IMG/VR virus record: IMGVR_UViG_3300020045_008999
Location: 64,001 to 128,000 of that record
Source: a virus
Taxonomy: Duplodnaviria; Heunggongvirae; Uroviricota; Caudoviricetes
DNA: 64,000 bases
Strand: one strand, 5' to 3'
The notes below the pieces were generated by a model. It did no database searches, was not told where the DNA came from, and was given only the letters and a program-made list of their open reading frames with translations. Made by a program: the position numbers and the translations under genes. Position 1 is the first letter of the stretch. Every line of letters starts with the position of its first letter. Positions 6,027-47,045 of the stretch are shown piece by piece.

Positions 6027-6099
6027 AGTTCCAAAGCTCAAATGGACGAGTCCCCGAATACGGATCGGGTGGTTGTGGGTTCGAATCCCATTGGAACTT
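6027..6099 (+). tRNA. tRNA-Arg (anticodon ACG)
   Basis: AGTTCCA/TGGAACT acceptor, GCTC/GAGT D stem, CCCGA-ATACGGA-TCGGG anticodon arm, GTGGG-TTCGAAT-CCCAT T arm; atypical A8 and A32. Confidence 0.8.
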
Positions 6100-6107
6100 C
6101 TAAATAT

Positions 6108-6193
6108 AGGGAAGTAAGCATAGTGGTACTGCAGCGGTTTGCTAAATCGTTCACCGTTCATTCGGTGCGTGGGTTCGAGTCCCACTTTCTCTG
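6108..6193 (+). tRNA. tRNA-Ser (anticodon GCU)
   Basis: AGGGAAG/TTTCTCT acceptor, GCGGT-TTGCTAA-ATCGT anticodon arm, long variable arm, GTGGG-TTCGAGT-CCCAC T arm. Confidence 0.85.
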
Positions 6194-22486: not shown

Positions 22487-22713
22487 TTATGACAATCGCG
22501 TTTCATCTATATATAAAAGTTTAGTAATTATTTAGATGGGTTATTGTACCTAGCTGAATTATTTATGAAAATATACAGTTTTCACAATTGAATAATGAAA
22601 TATAAGATTTATATTTGCATTCTAATGAATTAGCAAGTGACTAAAACATTAATAATGTATCCGCAATAGTATCGGTTTACAATTGGCATAAATAAACATT
22701 CAAATCAAATAAC

Positions 22714-22983
22714 ATGAAAATAGATCTAAAATCATTCGCATTTGGAATATTAATAATCGTATTAATATCCGCTGGTACAATTACTTCTGGCATAATTTCA
22801 TTTAAACCGGCCACTGCCAAAGAAGTTAAAGTACTCTCACTGTCAATTACTAATTTAAATACGGAAGATACCGAAAGGAATAAAATGATACTCACTAAAT
22901 ATTTACTAAAAGGATTTGTTATTACAAATACAATTCCGGCTGGAGAGGGATATAGTGTAGTTGTCGTGATGTCGAAATATTAA
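22714..22983 (+). CDS. small membrane-anchored hypothetical protein
   Basis: Hydrophobic N-terminal segment; promoter box 22610-22617. Confidence 0.6.
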   Translation: MKIDLKSFAFGILIIVLISAGTITSGIISFKPATAKEVKVLSLSITNLNTEDTERNKMILTKYLLKGFVITNTIPAGEGYSVVVVMSKY

Positions 22984-22986
22984 GTA

Positions 22987-23412
22987 ATGAGTATGAAATG
23001 CACTGGGATTATTAGAGGCATTATAATCGATTTAATGTTAGATATTCGCATAAGTCCTGCATTAATTTGGTTTGATAGTATTTGGAATGATTTACGTCCA
23101 TACCACACTACCATTTATTCCGAAAAGTGTACGGTTTATGTAAATTCTCATAATCAAGTTATTTTTGTGTATAATGAACGAGATGATTTTGGATGCAACC
23201 GAGATGATTTTTGGATGGTATTACAAAATTTTATATGCAAGGATGATGAAGCATATTACGAAACTCAACATTTGTGTAGTATTTTGATAACCAATAAACT
23301 TTCGAATAGACTAACCATTTTACCATCCTCTTTTTTCTACATGCATGATAAATACCTAGCAAGAGCTAGTATGGCATGTGGTATAGGAACACCGGGTCCA
23401 ATATTTAAATAA
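22987..23412 (+). CDS. N-terminal RxxxIDLxL family protein
   Basis: IIRGIIIDLMLD..LIWFDSIW. Confidence 0.65.
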   Translation: MSMKCTGIIRGIIIDLMLDIRISPALIWFDSIWNDLRPYHTTIYSEKCTVYVNSHNQVIFVYNERDDFGCNRDDFWMVLQNFICKDDEAYYETQHLCSILITNKLSNRLTILPSSFFYMHDKYLARASMACGIGTPGPIFK

Positions 23413-23416
23413 ATTA

Positions 23417-23555
23417 CACAAACGTTCTCTTGATTGTATAAGCTGGTAGAAGTAAGTCAAAATCGTCAAATTATAACTAATAAAAACAGGCACATACTAT
23501 GAATAGCGATAAGAATAATACCCAATTGCCACAATCAAGTGTTAGTAAATCGGTC
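23417..23555. repeat. attC-like hairpin site 1
   Basis: CACAAAC-5nt-CTTGATTGT ... ACAATCAAG-1nt-GTTAGTA; inner 9-bp perfect inverted repeat. Confidence 0.6.
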
Positions 23556-23864
23556 TTGGTTTCCGATAAGTGTAAGTTAGATTTCGAAAAATGGTTAGAC
23601 AAACAAAATGTTGCGCCATACAAAGTAATGTTTTATGATATTCCCGTAATAGTACAAATTGCTTATTTAGTAGAATGGTTTGATATTGTTGGATTAAATA
23701 TTTACACAAAACCAAGATTTCATGACGGCGGATTAAGTTTTGATGGATTTATTGACGGAATGAAAATATCAAAAATAGAAACTGAATATTTTAAATCAAG
23801 AACCGAAGCATTTTTAAAAGCAATAGAATTGGCAAATGTCTTTTATAACGATAATTTCGTTTAG
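23499..23864 (+). CDS. hypothetical protein in cassette-like unit, paralog of 5310..5717
   Basis: FEKWL, LVEWFD, AFLKAIELANVFYN; flanked by near-complementary GTTAGTAAATCGGTC and GACTGTTTGCTAAC. Confidence 0.7.
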   Translation: MNSDKNNTQLPQSSVSKSVLVSDKCKLDFEKWLDKQNVAPYKVMFYDIPVIVQIAYLVEWFDIVGLNIYTKPRFHDGGLSFDGFIDGMKISKIETEYFKSRTEAFLKAIELANVFYNDNFV

Positions 23865-24007
23865 ACTGTTTGCTAACGACCATCGATACATTTCCGGTTT
23901 GTAGTAAATAAGTGAGGTGCTTCGGGTGAAAACAATGGTTATAAATACAAAATAATATTAACACAATACCAAATACAAAAGCTGAAATATAGCGATTGTT
24001 AGTGGCA
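23864..24007. repeat. attC-like hairpin site 2
   Basis: GCTAAC-4nt-ATCGATACATTTC ... GAAATATAGCGAT-1nt-GTTAGTGG; inner arms 11/13 complementary. Confidence 0.65.
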
Positions 24008-24028
24008 TACCACGTAAAACTAGAAATT

Positions 24029-24241
24029 ATGTACTTAAAGAAACAATTTTCAAAAGCGAGATTAGATACTCAATTTGATAGCGGAATTAAATTTGAGCTT
24101 GAATGCGAAAAAATAGCAGATAAACACGCTATTGATTTTGCTAGATATGTTGCTAAAAACCCTAAACTATTCAATAATGGAATATCTATGGAAATGGCAT
24201 TAGAAAAGTTTAAATCAGAAATCAATTTTATGCAATCATAG
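24029..24241 (+). CDS. hypothetical protein in cassette-like unit
   Basis: ATG 24029; flanked by perfect 12-bp inverted repeat 23996-24007 / 24247-24258. Confidence 0.65.
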   Translation: MYLKKQFSKARLDTQFDSGIKFELECEKIADKHAIDFARYVAKNPKLFNNGISMEMALEKFKSEINFMQS

Positions 24242-24280
24242 GCGGTTGCCACTAACAATACTAATGATAATTACAATATA

Positions 24281-24742
24281 ATGGCAGATAACCGAATGAA
24301 TATGCGAAGTGTTAAGATTGATTTGATGTTAAATACTCAATCAAATCCAATTACATTTTGGTTTAATGGGTTTTTAGAAAAATTACACATAGTAGAAGCT
24401 AATGTGTATGGTCCTAGGGATGGTGAATTTATTTACTACATTATAGCAAACGGGCAAAAGCGTTGTATTTTTTATCAAAATAGCAACCGGGATATTACCT
24501 ATTATGATTCTACGTATTACTACACTTATATTGTACCCATAGTTGGATCTGCTCACGGATTCGGTAAACAATTAATTCAAATACTAATGAATTACGCTAT
24601 AGAGCATAATTTAATTAATGGTATCGAATTAATACAAAATAATCGTAAACCAAAACTTTTTGAAAGTCTTACCGATAAAGTTATGATCAAAGGTACTTTA
24701 ATTGGTGATATATTAATTGGATCATTTGTACAGAAGTTTTAA
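24281..24742 (+). CDS. N-terminal RxxxIDLxL family protein
   Basis: MRSVKIDLMLN..VY..DGEFIYY..IFYQ. Confidence 0.7.
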   Translation: MADNRMNMRSVKIDLMLNTQSNPITFWFNGFLEKLHIVEANVYGPRDGEFIYYIIANGQKRCIFYQNSNRDITYYDSTYYYTYIVPIVGSAHGFGKQLIQILMNYAIEHNLINGIELIQNNRKPKLFESLTDKVMIKGTLIGDILIGSFVQKF

Positions 24743-25248
24743 GTTATTTTATTAAATATTAATTTACATGATAAGTTGTGGGCAAGTTTGCGTATGAATG
24801 AACTACTTGCTTTAGTTCCGTGTAATAACGTTGGCTTGCGTATAATTTCAAATGTAAAATCTTCATTCATGTAAATTATCCCAGCATATTCGGGGACATC
24901 TCTTGGATCCACCAAACCTCTTGGGATTACAAAATTGAAATAGTTTGGTACCAAATAAACTACCTCACCCTTTGATATTTTAGTATATTTTTTATTGATT
25001 ATATTAGTATGCTTCAGTTTATTAAAATCTTTTTTAAAATCTGCTTTACTTATCTTAACTTCATATTCATAGATGTAATCCGATTTGGAAACTGAAATCA
25101 CATCACATTCAGAGAGGCCCATTCCGGTGAAATGGGTTGATATTGGTGAGTGTGATTTTTGATACAAATACATACACAGTGCCGCTTCTATATTCTTCGA
25201 TTTTGTATTATCTCTTTTAATTTTAGTTATTGAAGATTTTATACCCAT
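24739..25248 (-). CDS. MmcB-like PD-(D/E)XK nuclease family protein
   Basis: ECDVISV..YEYEVKISKADFKKD motif. Confidence 0.7.
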   Translation of the reverse strand: MGIKSSITKIKRDNTKSKNIEAALCMYLYQKSHSPISTHFTGMGLSECDVISVSKSDYIYEYEVKISKADFKKDFNKLKHTNIINKKYTKISKGEVVYLVPNYFNFVIPRGLVDPRDVPEYAGIIYMNEDFTFEIIRKPTLLHGTKASSSFIRKLAHNLSCKLIFNKIT

Positions 25249-25424
25249 TATTTTTTATATTATTTTATGCAAAATATACATGGTGACATTTCAGTATTTA
25301 ATCCCTTTGAATATTCTGATTAACATTAGATATATATTAAAATATTTCAATATCTTTCTATAACATAAAACAACTTATGGATGCCGACGACACATATTGT
25401 GTAATGTGATAAAAAACGCTGATA

Positions 25425-26072
25425 TTATTGCAGCCCATCGGAAATTTCATCTAGTAATTCTTGGTATTTTACTGTGTTTAATGACATATCATTGTTCCAA
25501 ATTTCAAAGTATCGCTGATATTTCAGTATTATATTAATATGTTCTAAATTCAACGTAGAATCATCATGATCTGGATCATAGTTTACGAAATTTTGAAGTT
25601 CATCCGGAAGATTGTAATTGTTGGCGAATGAACAATATCCACCAATTTTCACATCAACATTACCGGAATAGAGTGAAACCATTTCTCTATTATTGTCAAG
25701 TATTAAATCACCTTCAATACTTTCAGCTATCCCCTCTAATGATCTCAACACATTATAACTACAATCATAATCACCACCGACCGATGTTGGCCCACCTTCT
25801 AATGTGGTTATGTAATTACCACCACATTTAAAATCACCACCCACATGACGTGGACACCCCTCTAGTGTAGTTAAGTCGTTACCGGCAATATTTAAATTAC
25901 CACCAATTTTGTCAAAACGTATAGGAATGTAAGTCATCTTGTCAATCCATATTGATACGGTCATATCAGTATTAACCTCACCATTGGCATTTATTGTGTA
26001 TTCGGTTAATTCAATAGAATTACAAAATGCATCAATTTCGTCTTTTTGCTCTTTCGATATTAGATTTTTCAT
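25425..26072 (-). CDS. LRR-like repeat family protein
   Basis: N-cap, repeats, LKYQRYFEIWN..EISDGLQ C-cap. Confidence 0.9.
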   Translation of the reverse strand: MKNLISKEQKDEIDAFCNSIELTEYTINANGEVNTDMTVSIWIDKMTYIPIRFDKIGGNLNIAGNDLTTLEGCPRHVGGDFKCGGNYITTLEGGPTSVGGDYDCSYNVLRSLEGIAESIEGDLILDNNREMVSLYSGNVDVKIGGYCSFANNYNLPDELQNFVNYDPDHDDSTLNLEHINIILKYQRYFEIWNNDMSLNTVKYQELLDEISDGLQ

Positions 26073-26897: not shown

Positions 26898-27037
26898 GCT
26901 GTTCACTAACGTTCTACCTCTTGGTGATGTAGAAAAATCACGAATTATTAATATTTTTACAAGTGTGTAAGGCACAAAATAAATTATAAATTAAGACTGA
27001 ACTTGTCATATTGACAAACGGTTATAAACTACAAAAT

Positions 27038-34297: not shown

Positions 34298-34903
34298 ATG
34301 AATAACATCATTAGTAAAGAAGAAAAGGATCACATCGACAAAGTGTGTAAGTATTACTGCATCAGTAATTATTCGTTTAATCCGGATGGGTCAATTAATG
34401 TTGATGGTGACGTGAGTATAAGAAATTCAGAACTGAAAATTCTTCCTATTAAATTTGGTAGAGTAAGTGGTGGGTTTAGTTGTAGTAATAATACTCTGAG
34501 GTCACTTGTGGGGGCACCACATACGGTAGGCGGTAACTTCACTTGTTCGTTCAATTATTTGACTTCATTAATAGGGGGTCCTAGTGTGGTGGGTGGTATT
34601 TACACGTGTGGGTATAACCAACTGATTTCACTTAATGGATTAGCAGAGTCAATTGGTGGTATTTTCACTTGCAATGGTACTCGTGCATTAATATCAACTT
34701 ATTCAGGTGACGTGGATGTTGAAATTGCAGGTTATTGTGAAATTGTACAATCGGGAATACCAGAAATAATAGATGAGCATAGACAGTACCTTAATATAAT
34801 TTTAAAATACCAGCGTCATTTCTTGATATGGAATGATGATTTATCACTCAATGAAATCAATTTTCAAGAACTTCTGGATGAGATAAAAGATGGTCTCTTA
34901 TAA
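34298..34903 (+). CDS. LRR-like repeat family protein
   Basis: Family start MNNIISKEEK at 34298; repeats; LKYQRHFLIWN..EIKDGLL. Confidence 0.9.
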   Translation: MNNIISKEEKDHIDKVCKYYCISNYSFNPDGSINVDGDVSIRNSELKILPIKFGRVSGGFSCSNNTLRSLVGAPHTVGGNFTCSFNYLTSLIGGPSVVGGIYTCGYNQLISLNGLAESIGGIFTCNGTRALISTYSGDVDVEIAGYCEIVQSGIPEIIDEHRQYLNIILKYQRHFLIWNDDLSLNEINFQELLDEIKDGLL

Positions 34904-35034
34904 CGGTTGACGGCTATACGATGGTTGGGATAAAATAGCCGTAATTTTTCCGATTAACACAAATTATCCCCGACACAAACAAAACTTTAAATTAAACAAT
35001 TAACCCGACTATTGCATAACCGCTGTTAGCAGTA
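34898..35034. repeat. attC-like hairpin site 3
   Basis: TTATAAC-6nt-(34911-34929) ... (35004-35022)-2nt-GTTAGCA; inner arms 14/19 complementary, all differences transitions. Confidence 0.65.
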
Positions 35035-35052
35035 GTTATAATACGAAACTTT

Positions 35053-35196
35053 ATGGAAAAAGCATTAGAATGGTGGAATAAATTACCAAAATGGAAACAA
35101 GAAAAATACGCAAATGACGAACAATGGACAGATGCTAAAAGTATTACAAATCATCAAATTAAAATGATTTATGATGTGAAAGCAGATAGTTACTAA
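35053..35196 (+). CDS. small protein (47 aa) in cassette-like unit
   Basis: ORF below track cutoff (MEKALEWWNKLP..), flanked by perfect GTTAGCAGTA 35025-35034 / TACTGCTAAC 35201-35210. Confidence 0.65.
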   Translation: MEKALEWWNKLPKWKQEKYANDEQWTDAKSITNHQIKMIYDVKADSY

Positions 35197-35260
35197 TAAT
35201 TACTGCTAACATACTACTTAATCGAATCCCAATAATCATAACACGTACGTCAAATTCCAT

Positions 35261-43756: not shown

Positions 43757-44095
43757 TTGATGGAAATTATTTCAAATAGCGATTCAGCAACATCTTCACC
43801 AATACCAGAATTAATAGTTATAGATTCACCACAAACTTTATTGGATTTTTTAAAGACAAAAAGATGTAGTGAATTCACTACTAAAGATATGACTATATGG
43901 TTAAAGGGCGATTTCAAGTTGTCTAAGATTAAAACTACGAAAATAATACAAGAGCTCAAAACAATGGGTGTTATTGAACGACGAAGCGTAAGTGGCAATT
44001 GTCAAAGTACCTGTGCATCATGTTATGAATATGGATGTGAAGCTGAACCAAGACCACCTATTAATTTTTGGAAGGTATTGCGTTGGTCAATTTAA
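43757..44095 (+). CDS. hypothetical protein, possible winged-helix DNA binder
   Basis: 112 aa; LKTMGVIERR end of a wHTH-like segment; directly upstream of recombinase (weak). Confidence 0.5.
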   Translation: MMEIISNSDSATSSPIPELIVIDSPQTLLDFLKTKRCSEFTTKDMTIWLKGDFKLSKIKTTKIIQELKTMGVIERRSVSGNCQSTCASCYEYGCEAEPRPPINFWKVLRWSI

Positions 44096-44697
44096 AAAGT
44101 ACTAGCTACTCATGTTGTGTAATTTTCACAAAATCGAAAAACATTATGTCCATAAAAAATAGTATTACCACATCTGACTACATCGAATACGACCTCGCTA
44201 CACAAACCGCTATCAAATTAATGAAGTCACCAAAGACCGAATTAATCGCACGGTATATTATAATTGCGATCAATACTGGATTAAGACCGATTGATATCCT
44301 AAATTTAGGCTATGGTGATCTTTCTAAGCAACAAATAGACATCAATGATCATAATGGTGTATTTAGGAAAGGTATTGCTATAAACGACGCTGTACGTGCG
44401 ATTATCCCACTTGATACTTCTCGGGGTTTGTTCACCACTCAAAAGGGTAGTACTATAACGATGCAGCACCTCAATCGACTATTAAAAGAAGCATTTAAAA
44501 ATGACGCAACCAGGATTAATGTTAGTTCGCATTCATTTCGCAAATGTTTTGGAAGACGGGTATTGTCTAATAATAACTATTCAGACATTTCTCTATCATT
44601 TCTTATGAATTTTTACAATCATTCTTCACGTAGTATAACTCGTCAATATTTGGGAATTCATAAAGAAGAATTATCGGATATGCATTTTAATATCTAA
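44068..44697 (+). CDS. tyrosine recombinase (catalytic domain only)
   Basis: INTGLRPIDIL (R), SSHSFRKCFG (HxxR), NHSS..TRQYLG (H, Y); about 200 aa. Confidence 0.85.
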   Translation: MEGIALVNLKSTSYSCCVIFTKSKNIMSIKNSITTSDYIEYDLATQTAIKLMKSPKTELIARYIIIAINTGLRPIDILNLGYGDLSKQQIDINDHNGVFRKGIAINDAVRAIIPLDTSRGLFTTQKGSTITMQHLNRLLKEAFKNDATRINVSSHSFRKCFGRRVLSNNNYSDISLSFLMNFYNHSSRSITRQYLGIHKEELSDMHFNI

Positions 44698-44948
44698 TAT
44701 GTATGTGGATAAACACCACTGTTTACATTGTCCAATGCATCTAATCTATCTTGGTGGCATGATGCTAAATAAACAGTATTATATTGGTCAATATTTGAAA
44801 ATGTACAAAATTTACCAATAGTTACTATACCTTCGTAATCACAAAAACAACACGAATCACCACAATCACATTCGGTAACATTTGAATTTTGACAAAATGG
44901 ACAGGGTTTAATTAACATGTTTTTTGTTTTACGGTTATTCCAATCCAT
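44694..44948 (-). CDS. small Cys-rich hypothetical protein
   Basis: CPFC..CDC..CCFC; likely start ATG 44918. Confidence 0.45.
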   Translation of the reverse strand: MDWNNRKTKNMLIKPCPFCQNSNVTECDCGDSCCFCDYEGIVTIGKFCTFSNIDQYNTVYLASCHQDRLDALDNVNSGVYPHTY

Positions 44949-45753
44949 CTTTAATTTCGCTTAGAAGTATATAAAAATTTTCTTCATTTAATGTAAGATT
45001 ATCATTCCAAATTTCAAAATGTCTTTGGTATTTTAAAATCAATTTAAGATGCTTAATATTATACCGCAGTGAATGTGGTAATCCAGTAAATCCATCTCTT
45101 GTAAAATCTATAAAATTACCAATATCAATATCAATATCACCACTATATGTGGATTCTAATCTAGAACAATTAGTGTGTATAAAATTACCATGAACAATTT
45201 CCGGAAACCCCACCAAGGAAGTTATATAATTGTAACAACAGTGAAAATCGCCTTTTACGATTTTTGGACCACCCAACAAAGTGGTTAATCTATTACGATC
45301 AACTGTTACACTCCCACCAATTGTCTCACTGATTCCATCCAAGTTAGTTATTGGTGTGAACGAACAATAGAACCCGGAACGAACGGTCTTCGGGGACCCC
45401 TTTAATGTAGTTAGGTTTATATTATTAGTACAGAAAAAGCTACCACCTACGAAGTCCGGTGCACCCTCCAGTGTTATTAACAAGTTATGGGTACAGTCGA
45501 AGTCACCTAATACTACAATCGGTCCACCTTTTAATGTGGTTAGCATGCTGGATTGACAATCGAAATCACCATGTATTTTATTAAATCTGAGTGGGAGTGT
45601 GTCTAAATAATGACCCCTTAGTTTTACATCACCATACACATCAATGGACCCATCGATATTAATTACATAGTCTTGAATGTGAAATTGCGAACATAACTTA
45701 GATATTTCAATATGCGACACTAGTTGAGCGGCTGGATTCGAATATTTCTCCAT
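44935..45753 (-). CDS. LRR-like repeat family protein
   Basis: Repeats and LKYQRHFEIWN..EIKDGLE C-cap; extended N terminus. Confidence 0.9.
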   Translation of the reverse strand: MEKYSNPAAQLVSHIEISKLCSQFHIQDYVINIDGSIDVYGDVKLRGHYLDTLPLRFNKIHGDFDCQSSMLTTLKGGPIVVLGDFDCTHNLLITLEGAPDFVGGSFFCTNNINLTTLKGSPKTVRSGFYCSFTPITNLDGISETIGGSVTVDRNRLTTLLGGPKIVKGDFHCCYNYITSLVGFPEIVHGNFIHTNCSRLESTYSGDIDIDIGNFIDFTRDGFTGLPHSLRYNIKHLKLILKYQRHFEIWNDNLTLNEENFYILLSEIKDGLE

Positions 45754-46304: not shown

Positions 46305-47045
46305 ATGAAGAACTTAGTTAATAAAGAGGAAAAGGATAGAATCGATTTGATATGTGGTGTATATAATATTAAAAAATATACAATAAAATCCGATGGTTAT
46401 ATAGATGTTGCTGGTGACGTCGAGTTGTTCGACAAACATTTAACACAACTTCCTCTAAAATTTGGCAAAATTCGCGGGTCTTTTAAATGTTTTGGCAATG
46501 ATTTAACCACATTACTTGGTGCACCCCACACAGTTGGTTTGCATTTCGAATGCCATGCTAATAAAATAACCTCATTAGAGGGTGGTCCATCATCGGTCGG
46601 TGGTAATTACTCATGTGGATCAAATAAATTAGATTCTTTAATTGGTGTGCCAAGTGTAGTTGGTGGCAGTTTTGACTGCAGTTATAATTCATTATCGACA
46701 TTGATTGGTGGTCCACTAGTGGTTGGTAGTAACTATTATTGTCTTAATAACAGTTTGACGTCACTAGAGGGATTGCCAACTATTCTAAATGCTAACATAA
46801 ATATGAGAACTAATCGAATCCGTACTACATATTCAGGAAATGATGATATTTTATTAAACGGTGCTGAAACAGATGTGTTTACTATAGATCCATATCATTT
46901 GCCTAAAGCAATCACGGATAACATATGGCATCTTGATAAAATTATGAAATATCAGCGATTCTTTGAAATTTGGAATGATGACCTAACATTAAGCGAAGAA
47001 AATTTTAAAGTGCTTCTAGATGAAATAAACGATGGACTAGAGTAG
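46305..47045 (+). CDS. LRR-like repeat family protein
   Basis: N-cap, repeats, C-cap; TTTTATATATAG at 46266-46277. Confidence 0.9.
   Translation: MKNLVNKEEKDRIDLICGVYNIKKYTIKSDGYIDVAGDVELFDKHLTQLPLKFGKIRGSFKCFGNDLTTLLGAPHTVGLHFECHANKITSLEGGPSSVGGNYSCGSNKLDSLIGVPSVVGGSFDCSYNSLSTLIGGPLVVGSNYYCLNNSLTSLEGLPTILNANINMRTNRIRTTYSGNDDILLNGAETDVFTIDPYHLPKAITDNIWHLDKIMKYQRFFEIWNDDLTLSEENFKVLLDEINDGLE

What the first reader, a model, noticed from the sequence alone, without database searches (positions are those of the whole stretch)
23417..24258. Two consecutive integron-like gene cassettes with attC-like sites
Seen: sites at 23417-23555 and 23864-24007 share the layout (C/T/A)AAC - 4-5 nt - inner arm ... 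inner arm - 1 nt - GTTAG. Each gene is bracketed by mutually complementary ends: GTTAGTAAATCGGTC (23541) with GACTGTTTGCTAAC (23864) and TTGTTAGTGGCA (23996) with TGCCACTAACAA (24247, perfect 12 bp). Established: complementarity between a cassette's own 5' GTT core and the AAC core after its stop codon is the hallmark of integron cassettes that recombine as single-strand hairpins. Inference: the phage acquires accessory genes as cassettes from a Bacteroidota attC-like system (the layout recalls the Rfam Flavo-1 motif, from memory).
Basis: partly seen in the sequence, partly recalled or inferred. Interest (0 to 1): 0.72.

Follow-up and report, generated by a model that had tools for sequence, protein, structure and literature searches.

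The report
Integron-type gene cassettes in huge phage
Two small genes in this 597-kb phage are mobile gene cassettes, each led by a folding hairpin site of the integron (attC) kind. The same cassette system fills Flavobacterium phages and Bacteroidota chromosomes, where it sits beside a Xer-like recombinase, so it appears to move genes between hosts, small phages and huge phages.

Summary

**What the window shows**
- On the window alone the evidence is weak. A 13-nt inverted repeat is expected by chance, and the two sites fold no better than shuffled sequence.
- A covariance model built only from other loci finds both sites: 23870-24005 at 62 bits (E 3e-9) and 23417-23548 at 39 bits (E 6e-5).

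**The family the sites belong to**
- They are ~134-nt hairpin elements of the form nnnnTAAC|G, spacer, covarying arms, GTTAnnnn.
- These elements separate nearly every small gene in Flavobacterium phage arrays.
- The 4 nt after each GTTA complement the 4 nt before the next TAAC in 54 of 65 cases (chance 3.7%). This is the integron cassette signature.
- In cultured phages lillamy9-1 and 9-7, a 444-nt cassette is precisely excised and reinserted at TAAC|.
- Arrays lie directly after a Xer/IntI-like recombinase gene in 31 of 80 Bacteroidota chromosomal loci.

- The cassette border is AAC|G upstream of each gene. Cassette A is 23424-23877 and cassette B is 23878-24256.
- There is no Flavo-1 match.
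- The phage holds 13 dispersed elements and no cognate recombinase.

**Prior sightings**
- Earlier notes from this scan describe the same system in other genomes.

The parts
23417..23548 (+). attC-like hairpin site 1, which heads cassette A. The 5' core AAC is at 23421-23423 and is degenerate (AAAC instead of TAAC). The junction is 23423|23424. The arms are CTTGATTGT and ACAATCAAG. The 3' core GTTAG at 23541-23545 lies inside gene A.
   Evidence: Covariance model R1 gives 38.6 bits, E 6.3e-5. Homology to L024 3922-4047 begins exactly at AACG. The arms are replaced by a different but still complementary pair in L013.
23424..23877 (+). Cassette A (454 nt): hairpin body, gene A, and its own terminus TTGCTAAC.
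   Evidence: The terminus TTGCTAAC complements GTTAGTAA at 7 of 8 positions. Homology to L013, L014 and L015 ends at ...GCTA(AC), with unrelated flanks beyond.
23499..23864 (+). Gene A, 121 aa, function unknown. Its start codon and first ~15 codons lie inside site 1.
   Evidence: ORF list. 35 homologues were found, mostly on phage contigs. The identical relative P0003 occurs in at least 5 different gene contexts. No Pfam family matches.
23870..24005 (+). attC-like hairpin site 2, which heads cassette B. The 5' core TAAC is at 23874-23877, the junction is 23877|23878, and the 3' core GTTAG is at 23998-24002.
   Evidence: R1 gives 62.2 bits, E 3.4e-9. It is homologous to L024 4360-4494 and 5121-5256, with compensatory arm changes. 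The window copy has two stem mismatches and folds at z +0.24, against -5.4 and -3.1 for the L024 copies.
23878..24256 (+). Cassette B (379 nt): hairpin body, gene B, and its own terminus CCACTAAC.
   Evidence: GTTAGTGG (23998-24005) and CCACTAAC (24249-24256) are exactly complementary. Homology to L024 stops exactly after CCACTAAC.
24029..24241 (+). Gene B, 70 aa, function unknown.
   Evidence: It is 88% identical to the 70-aa gene that follows the gene A homologue in L024. It is 91% identical at protein level (92% nt) to a lone copy in L016, whose flanks are unrelated.
24247..24259 (+). Terminal half-site of cassette B and right junction with phage DNA (TAAC|AATACT). This is the second arm of the 13-nt perfect inverted repeat.
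34897..35210 (+). A third cassette of the same family, outside the finding. The hairpin is 34897-35032, a 47-aa ORF is at 35053-35196, and the exact own terminus CTGCTAAC ends at 35210.
   Evidence: R1 gives 84.1 bits, E 3.8e-13. The terminus lies 178 nt downstream of the hairpin.

Best explanation
Positions 23424-24256 hold two adjacent integron-type gene cassettes inserted between two resident paralogous genes of a 597-kb huge phage.

**Cassette anatomy.** Each cassette reads G, 3-4 nt spacer, arm ... arm', N, GTTAnnnn, ORF, nnnnTAAC. The ~134-nt hairpin is an attC-type recombination site.

**Proposed mechanism.**
- A tyrosine recombinase of the Xer/IntI lineage binds the folded single strand. 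This enzyme is encoded beside arrays in Bacteroidota chromosomes and in some phages, but not in this phage.
- It exchanges strands at the AAC|G core, which is G|TT on the complementary strand.
- Excision gives a circle in which the cassette's own nnnnTAAC meets its hairpin body and completes an 8-bp R box with GTTAnnnn.
- Insertion occurs at another core, or at a loosely AAC-containing secondary site.

**In this genome.** Cassettes entered singly or in pairs at dispersed secondary sites (13 elements). This resembles SALIN (single attC site lacking an integron integrase) and attG-type (genomic secondary-site) insertion. The enzyme was probably supplied by the Flavobacterium-like host or by a co-infecting phage.

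**Shown:** family membership, covarying arms, the flank-complementarity rule, precise excision and insertion in cultured relatives, and linkage of arrays to the recombinase.

**Inferred:** the single-stranded substrate, the identity of the enzyme, and the source and timing of acquisition. Whether the two window sites can still recombine is unknown; they look partly decayed.
For: **1. Family membership.** Model R1, trained without this genome, hits both sites and 13 places in the genome.

**2. Structure.**
- 15 of 21 stem pairs show compensatory changes.
- 91.4% of cells are paired against 65% in shuffles.
- The covariation score is 0.636 against 0.152 (0 of 500 shuffles reach it) and against 0.08-0.19 for slid controls.
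- Two G-T pairs are invariant, and G-U cells outnumber A-C cells 75 to 10. One strand, the gene-sense strand in phages, is therefore the folded one.

**3. Cassette rule.**
- The 4 nt after GTTA complement the 4 nt before the next TAAC in 54 of 65 consecutive pairs. Chance is 3.7% (p about 2e-66).
- Flanks of the same element match in only 3 of 88 cases.

**4. Direct mobility in cultured relatives.**
- Between phages lillamy9-1 and 9-7, which are 100% identical across the rest of the cassette array, a 444-nt cassette is precisely excised: ..ACATAAC|GCTTTG..[cassette]..GTTATAAC|GTTAAAGC.. becomes ..ACATAAC|GTTAAAGC..
- It is reinserted at ..CTTATAAC|TACAAT.. with no target duplication.
- Three further cassette gains and losses end at the same core.

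**5. Gene-sized mosaicism.**
- Gene A alone is found at 82-89% nt identity in L013-L015, and gene B alone at 92% in L016, with unrelated flanks.
- The identical gene A relative sits behind different upstream cassettes, and the switch falls inside TAAC|G.

**6. Window borders.**
- Homology to L024 starts at AAC|G and ends at CCACTAAC|.
- 6 of 13 genome elements have an exact own terminus within 600 nt. The expected number is 0.14 (P about 8e-10).

**7. Enzyme linkage.** 79 R1 hits fall in 31 of 80 loci that encode ~50%-identical relatives of the recombinase next to the L024 array. Almost all lie on one strand directly downstream of that gene.

**8. Recent traffic.** One element of this phage is 91.6% identical to one in the cultured Flavobacterium phage snusmum6-1.
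Against: - The two window sites fold no better than shuffled sequence.
- Site 1 has AAAC instead of TAAC and eight non-canonical stem positions.
- Cassette A's ends match at 7 of 8 positions.
- This phage has no relative of the linked recombinase. Its only PF00589 hit, 44068-44697, is 24% identical to that enzyme with E 0.029.
- No empty site or polymorphism could be found for this phage.
- The linked recombinase is below the NCBIfam integron-integrase cut-off, 206 against 265 bits.
- IntegronFinder's attC model could not be run.
- The hairpins lie in the 5' leaders and first codons of the genes, so an additional RNA role is not excluded.
- Recombinase activity on these sites has never been assayed.
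Confidence: 0.85

Rival explanations
1. The hairpins are primarily RNA elements. They would be 5'-leader structures, RNase III-type processing sites or terminators that insulate and regulate each small gene. Under this view the gene-sized mosaicism comes from ordinary homologous recombination between these conserved intergenic repeats, as proposed for promoter stem-loop cassettes of T4-type phages.
For: - The folded strand is the mRNA-sense strand in phages, and G-U pairs are conserved.
- Start codons and A-rich leaders lie in the hairpin loop.
- Some copies contain a CTTCGG tetraloop-like motif.
Against: - Homologous recombination between repeats does not predict that the 4 nt flanking the cores follow the own-cassette rule (54 of 65 pairs).
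- It does not predict insertion at a site that shares only ATAAC with the cassette.
- The arms differ completely between neighbouring elements, so only ~5 nt of homology is available.
- In chromosomes the same elements lie next to a tyrosine recombinase, with ORFs in either orientation.
- No Rfam family matches.
Confidence: 0.07
2. The elements are miniature inverted-repeat transposable elements (MITE-like). Their ~25-bp terminal inverted repeats would be moved by a transposase and merely happen to sit between genes.
For: The size (~134 nt), the terminal inverted repeats with TAAC/GTTA ends, many copies, and dispersed single copies in this genome.
Against: - What moves is hairpin plus gene, not the hairpin alone.
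- There are no target-site duplications.
- Arm sequences are not conserved but covary, which fits structure recognition and not a transposase binding site.
- The flank rule links one element's 3' side to the next element's 5' side.
- The linked enzyme is a tyrosine recombinase.
Confidence: 0.03
3. The window features are chance inverted repeats in AT-rich DNA with no shared origin or function.
For: Within-window statistics are not significant.
Against: - Covariance-model E-values of 3e-9 and 6e-5 come from a model trained elsewhere.
- The sites are homologous to elements flanking the same genes in L024.
- The cassette termini are exact.
Confidence: 0.01

Closest known systems
Classical integrons, especially sedentary chromosomal integrons (IntI, attI, attC-bounded cassette arrays)
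   Same: - Single-gene cassettes.
- An imperfect hairpin site with conserved AAC/GTT outer cores and variable, covarying inner arms.
- Site length of 78-140 nt.
- The cassette's own ends reconstitute the R box.
- Precise excision and insertion without target duplication.
- Arrays adjacent to a tyrosine recombinase of the Xer/IntI lineage.
- One strand folds better than the other.
   Different: - The linked recombinase passes NF040815 ('site-specific tyrosine recombinase/integron integrase', 222 against a cut-off of 220 bits) but not the integron-integrase model TIGR02249 (206 against 265). It matches TIGR02249 in two stretches that skip the middle of the profile.
- In chromosomes the recombinase gene points toward the array.
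- In phages every ORF is on the strand opposite to the classical one. The hairpin therefore precedes the gene and contains its start codon.
- IntegronFinder surveys reported only lone integrases in Bacteroidetes, plus one complete integron in Salinibacter (PMC9024848).
CALINs in phage genomes (clusters of attC sites lacking an integron integrase; Qi et al. 2023, PMC9892861), including Polaribacter phage P12002L
   Same: - Clusters of attC-type sites without an integrase in phages of Flavobacteriaceae, carrying DNA methyltransferase cassettes.
- The published P12002L_attC1 primer reads ..TGCTAACG, 4 nt, arm ... arm', TTGTTAGGCG. This is the same layout.
   Different: - That study found 2 sites per phage with classical attC models.
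- P12002L_attC1 was the one site of six that IntI1 did not recombine.
- My model R1 finds nothing in P12002L, so that phage carries a shorter subfamily.
- That study did not report arrays of 11-15 sites, the link to a Xer-like recombinase, or huge-phage insertions.
SALINs (single attC sites lacking an integron integrase) and attG (genomic secondary-site) insertion of integron cassettes (bioRxiv 10.1101/2022.09.11.507474)
   Same: Isolated cassettes inserted outside att sites at many loosely defined genomic sites, far from any integrase. This matches the 13 dispersed elements here, whose left cores are degenerate (AAAC, CAAC, CATC).
   Different: That work was done with IntI1 in E. coli chromosomes. 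Here the target is a phage genome and the enzyme is unknown.
Rfam Flavo-1 motif (RF01705)
   Same: Both occur in Bacteroidota, both are intergenic, and both are found in either orientation relative to transcripts (PMC9723704).
   Different: No match at E up to 10 in the window region, or at E up to 1 on four intact arrays.
Promoter stem-loop (PeSL) mobile regulatory cassettes of T4-type phages, and XerCD pdif modules of Acinetobacter plasmids (both recalled from my own knowledge, not checked here)
   Same: Small genes in phage or plasmid plastic regions are bracketed by short repeated sites and are found in many contexts.
   Different: - PeSL shuffling is ascribed to homologous recombination between conserved repeats.
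- pdif sites are 28-bp double-stranded Xer sites, not ~134-nt hairpins with covarying arms and an own-cassette flank rule.

Membership tests
Integron cassette / attC site | Outer cores AAC ... GTT (R''/R') that pair with each other | tested here: met
   TAAC and GTTA are invariant or nearly so in 30 training elements. The window sites have AAAC/GTTAG and TAAC/GTTAG.
Integron cassette / attC site | Structure is conserved while sequence is not: an imperfect hairpin with variable inner arms | tested here: met
   15 of 21 pairs show compensatory changes. The covariation score is 0.636 against 0.152 in shuffles. The window copies themselves are weak folders.
Integron cassette / attC site | In arrays, a cassette's 5' flank after the core complements the core flank of its own downstream site and not that of the adjacent hybrid site | tested here: met
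   54 of 65 own-cassette pairs are 4/4 complementary, against 3 of 88 for the same element. In the window: GTTAGTGG/CCACTAAC is exact and GTTAGTAA/TTGCTAAC matches 7 of 8.
Integron cassette / attC site | Precise excision and insertion at the core without target duplication | tested here: met
   Shown for relatives (lillamy9-1 against 9-7, sniff9-1 and snork6-2). Not observable for this phage.
Integron cassette / attC site | Recognised by the IntegronFinder or HattCI attC models; extrahelical bases and an unpaired central spacer | not testable with these tools
   Those models are not available here. A 3-4 nt one-sided spacer and a recurrent C-A mismatch or bulge are visible, but their equivalence to the classical features is unproven.
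Complete integron | Adjacent IntI integrase carrying the IntI-specific additional domain | tested here: not met
   G000 has no such gene. The recombinase linked to arrays elsewhere scores 206 bits against a cut-off of 265 on TIGR02249 and matches in two stretches. It passes NF040815 at 222 against 220.
Complete integron | attI site and Pc promoter at the head of the array | tested here: inconclusive
   In L066 the first cassette starts at G|TTAGCGG, about 100 nt after the recombinase stop codon. In lillamy9-7 the new cassette entered at the array end that corresponds to this position. No promoter was tested.
CALIN / SALIN (attC sites lacking an integron integrase) | One or more attC sites with no integron integrase nearby | tested here: met
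   There are two sites at 23417-24005 and 13 in the genome, and no cognate recombinase.
Rfam Flavo-1 (RF01705) | Match to the Rfam covariance model | tested here: not met
   No hit.

The most novel reading that the evidence does not exclude
Bacteroidota and their phages share a widespread integron variant that standard integron tools largely miss. It is run by a short Xer-like recombinase that lacks the IntI signature. In phages each cassette carries its hairpin site in front of the gene, with the start codon inside the loop. The system moves single genes between chromosomes, 38-kb siphophages and ~600-kb huge phages. Huge phages collect cassettes at dispersed secondary sites using an enzyme they do not encode.
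Probability: 0.6. Interest if true: 0.85.

Novelty: new variant of a known kind. Interest (0 to 1): 0.74.

Why it matters
Integrons are regarded as largely a proteobacterial gene-capture device. Surveys reported only lone integrases in Bacteroidetes, and only small attC clusters in a few phages.

If this system is what it appears to be, three things follow:
- A major phylum and its viruses have their own cassette exchange network.
- That network would explain the single-gene mosaicism of phage 'hyperplastic' regions.
- It would show how huge phages pick up accessory genes.

The system is also directly testable. The phage isolates and hosts are in culture (lillamy, sniff and snork on Flavobacterium sp. 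LMO6 and LMO9) and already differ by whole cassettes.

Tried and rejected
- **Rfam.** Scans of the window at gathering thresholds, of 22500-25500 at E up to 10, and of four intact arrays at E up to 1 gave no Flavo-1 or other relevant family.
- **Folding of the two window sites.** Folded as ssDNA on both strands, neither beat shuffled sequence. This reflects decay of these copies, not absence of the family.
- **Strict regex scan of the genome.** It showed no enrichment. It was too strict and missed real elements later found by the covariance model.
- **Promoter and terminator scan.** Nothing above shuffles.
- **Empty-site search.**
  - The flanking genes (141 aa and 153 aa) have no relatives in viral or metagenome contigs.
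  - Related huge phages share only the 169-aa gene and are not syntenic.
  - Flanks of four other cassettes found no empty sites among deposited phages.
- **Sequencing runs holding this DNA.** None was listed.
- **P12002L.** No R1 hit, although similar shorter hairpins are visible.
- **Cargo function.** Pfam, PHROGs and the ESM Atlas give nothing for genes A and B or for nine other cassette ORFs.
- **The window's own tyrosine-recombinase-like ORF (44068-44697).** It is too distant from the array-linked enzyme to count as cognate.

Full report
**Setting.** The window is bases 64001-128000 of a 596,785-bp viral record at about 31% G+C. This is a huge phage. Its nearest deposited relatives are the 635-642-kb uncultured phages LR745206 and LR756502. 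The finding covers two small same-strand genes: gene A (23499-23864, 121 aa) and gene B (24029-24241, 70 aa). They lie between two weakly paralogous resident genes, 22987-23412 and 24281-24742.

**Checking the observation.** Judged on the window alone, it does not exceed chance:
- Perfect 13-mer inverted repeats within 400 nt occur in 73% of Markov shuffles.
- Both sites fold as ssDNA no better than shuffles.
- A strict pattern scan of the genome is not enriched.
- Rfam has no match, including Flavo-1.

**What changed the picture.**
- Gene A alone recurs at 82-89% nucleotide identity in three viral contigs, and gene B alone at 92% in a fourth. All have unrelated flanks.
- In a Flavobacterium sp. 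contig (L024) the A and B homologues are adjacent. The ~134-nt intergenic element of 23870-24005 recurs there twice, with compensatory arm changes, and folds strongly at z -5.4 and -3.1.
- The site upstream of gene A has the same outer layout in L013 but entirely different, still complementary arms.
- A scan of the fetched loci showed that nearly every intergenic gap in these phage arrays holds an element of the form [A/C]TAACG, 3-4 nt, arm ... arm', N, GTTA[G/T]nnnn on the gene strand.

**Is it a real structured family?**
- An alignment of 30 elements, none from this genome, gives 21 consensus pairs, 15 of them with compensatory changes.
- 91.4% of cells are paired against 65% in shuffles.
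- The covariation score is 0.636 against 0.152 (0 of 500 shuffles reach it) and 0.08-0.19 for slid controls.
- Two G-T pairs are invariant, and G-U cells outnumber A-C cells 75 to 10. The gene-sense strand is therefore the one selected to fold.
- The covariance model R1 built from this alignment scores the window's site 2 at 62.2 bits (E 3.4e-9) and site 1 at 38.6 bits (E 6.3e-5). It also finds an unreported element at 34897-35032 at 84.1 bits.
- Genome-wide it finds 13 elements, dispersed singly or in pairs.

**Is it a cassette system?** Three independent lines say yes.

1. *The flank rule.* The 4 nt after each GTTA complement the 4 nt before the next element's TAAC in 54 of 65 consecutive pairs. 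Chance is 3.7% (p about 2e-66). The two flanks of the same element match only at chance level, 3 of 88. This is the signature of integron cassettes, whose ends meet in the excised circle.

2. *Nucleotide-level mobility in cultured phages.* Flavobacterium phages lillamy9-1 and lillamy9-7 are 100% identical across the rest of the cassette array.
   - A 444-nt unit (hairpin + gp015 + GTTATAAC) has left ..TTTTACATAAC|G.. and leaves a precise joint behind.
   - It sits in 9-7 at ..CTTGCTTATAAC|TACAAT.., with no target duplication.
   - Three other cassette gains and losses among lillamy, sniff and snork phages end at the same core.

3. *Context switching.* The identical gene A relative, with its upstream hairpin, follows different upstream cassettes. 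The left flank (GTTATAAC or CATATAAC) tracks the upstream cassette, so the switch lies in TAAC|G.

From these it follows that a cassette is G, hairpin body, GTTAnnnn, ORF, nnnnTAAC. On the complementary strand the crossover is the classical G|TT. Phage ORFs are therefore antisense to the classical integron orientation, the hairpin precedes the gene, and the hairpin often contains its start codon.

**The enzyme.**
- The complete lillamy9-1 genome has no tyrosine recombinase.
- L024 has a split Xer-like one next to its array.
- I fetched 80 genomic loci that encode ~50%-identical relatives of that protein across Bacteroidota. These include Flavobacterium, Pedobacter, Arundinibacter, Aquimarina, Maribacter, Seonamhaeicola and Chitinophaga, and also MAGs labelled Bacteroidales and Ignavibacteria.
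- R1 finds 79 elements in 31 of these loci. Almost all lie on one strand and start 0.4-1 kb after the recombinase stop codon.
- In F. saccharophilum the 347-aa protein passes NF040815 ('site-specific tyrosine recombinase/integron integrase', 222 against 220 bits). It fails the integron-integrase model TIGR02249 (206 against 265, in two stretches).
- In that genome the first cassette begins at G|TTAGCGG about 100 nt after the gene, and that sequence matches the first element's CCGCTAAC.
- Enzyme identity and a single-stranded substrate remain inferences.

**The window in this light.**
- Cassette A is 23424-23877 and cassette B is 23878-24256.
- Homology to L024 begins exactly at AAC|G and ends exactly after CCACTAAC.
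- B's ends are exactly complementary. A's match at 7 of 8 positions.
- Site 1 has a degenerate AAAC core, as expected for a junction with a secondary site.
- Both hairpins carry stem mismatches, so they may no longer be recombinogenic.
- Cassette A is chimeric. Its hairpin body resembles L024 (83%) and its ORF body resembles L013 (92%), with the switch at the GTTAG at 23541. It could reflect rare exchange at the other core, or short homologous exchange.
- Of the 13 genome elements, 6 have an exact own terminus 160-410 nt downstream. The expected number is 0.14 (P about 8e-10). Three more, including cassette A, have a terminus with one mismatch within 600 nt.
- Their left cores vary (TAAC, AAAC, CAAC, CATC). 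This fits insertion at loosely defined secondary sites.
- One element is 91.6% identical to one in the cultured Flavobacterium phage snusmum6-1. This points to a Flavobacterium-like host and to recent traffic.
- The phage's only tyrosine-recombinase-like ORF (44068-44697) is not a close relative of the linked enzyme.

**Comparison with the literature.**
- IntegronFinder surveys found only lone integrases in Bacteroidetes, and later one complete integron in Salinibacter (PMC9024848).
- Qi et al. 2023 reported small attC clusters in 17 phages, including Polaribacter phage P12002L. Their attC1 primer has the same TAACG ... TGTTAGGCG layout, and it was the one site of six that IntI1 did not recombine (PMC9892861).
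- Isolated cassettes inserted at genomic attG sites (SALINs) are known for IntI1 (bioRxiv 10.1101/2022.09.11.507474).
- I found no paper describing large arrays of this site type, its Xer-like partner, or huge-phage insertions. The library does not hold every journal.

**Earlier notes from this scan.** Notes from other genomes describe the same system. I read them after reaching this reading. They agree with it but are not independent evidence.

**Verdict.**
- The region is a two-cassette, integrase-less insertion of a Bacteroidota integron variant.
- Rival readings are weaker. RNA-only elements, MITEs and chance cannot explain the flank rule, the precise hairpin-plus-gene movements or the recombinase linkage.
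- The cargo genes have no recognisable function.

Noticed in passing
window 34897-35210: A third cassette of the same family, scoring higher than the two in the finding: R1 84.1 bits, a 47-aa ORF at 35053-35196, and an exact terminus CTGCTAAC. It is inserted so that the stop codon of the upstream resident gene lies in CTTATAAC.
   Followed up: partly
window 26903-27028: A weak R1 hit (36.7 bits, E 0.0013) reading TCACTAACG...GGTTATAAA. No matching cassette terminus was found. It may be a decayed element.
   Followed up: partly
G000 genome coordinates 30990, 185497, 205006, 263166, 282786, 425785, 572178, 585814, 586166 (loci L031-L041): Nine further elements lie outside the window. Most head a single small ORF (69-122 aa, no Pfam family). 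The one at 185497 is 91.6% identical to an element of Flavobacterium phage snusmum6-1.
   Followed up: partly
window 23541 (cassette A): Cassette A is chimeric. The hairpin body and first codons resemble L024, and the ORF body resembles L013. The switch is at GTTAG, which suggests occasional exchange at the second core.
   Followed up: partly
window 44068-44697 (+): A 209-aa tyrosine-recombinase-like ORF (PF00589 at 37.8 bits). It is only distantly related to the array-linked recombinase, and its role is unknown.
   Followed up: partly
window 25425-26072 (-), 44935-45753 (-), about 34780-34903 (+); inverted repeats at 46964/47124 and 51275/51446: A multi-copy resident gene family has repeat-rich bodies and a conserved C-terminal ..YQR.FEIWN.. 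motif. The long perfect inverted repeats that share TGGAATGATGA probably reflect convergent copies of this family.
   Followed up: no
window 6027-6099 and 6108-6193 (+): Two adjacent tRNA genes (Rfam RF00005, 47 and 44 bits).
   Followed up: no
L025/L026 (Flavobacterium phages lillamy9-1 and 9-7), L027, L028: Natural isolates differ by one cassette translocation, two deletions and one ~1.2-kb insertion carrying a DNA methyltransferase gene. All are bounded by TAAC|G. This is a ready experimental system.
   Followed up: yes
L066 9470-17588 (Flavobacterium saccharophilum DSM 1811): A chromosomal array of at least 9 elements starts ~100 nt after a 347-aa Xer/IntI-like recombinase gene that points toward the array. 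Cassette ORFs there occur in both orientations.
   Followed up: partly
L019 1-3386: A block of three cassettes (212, 75 and 89 aa) is duplicated in tandem within one phage contig.
   Followed up: no
window 24739-25248 (-): A 169-aa protein (PHROG 2776; weak match to a 'DNA repair protein' family) is the only gene near the finding that is shared at 70-76% identity with related huge phages. In those phages its neighbours differ.
   Followed up: partly
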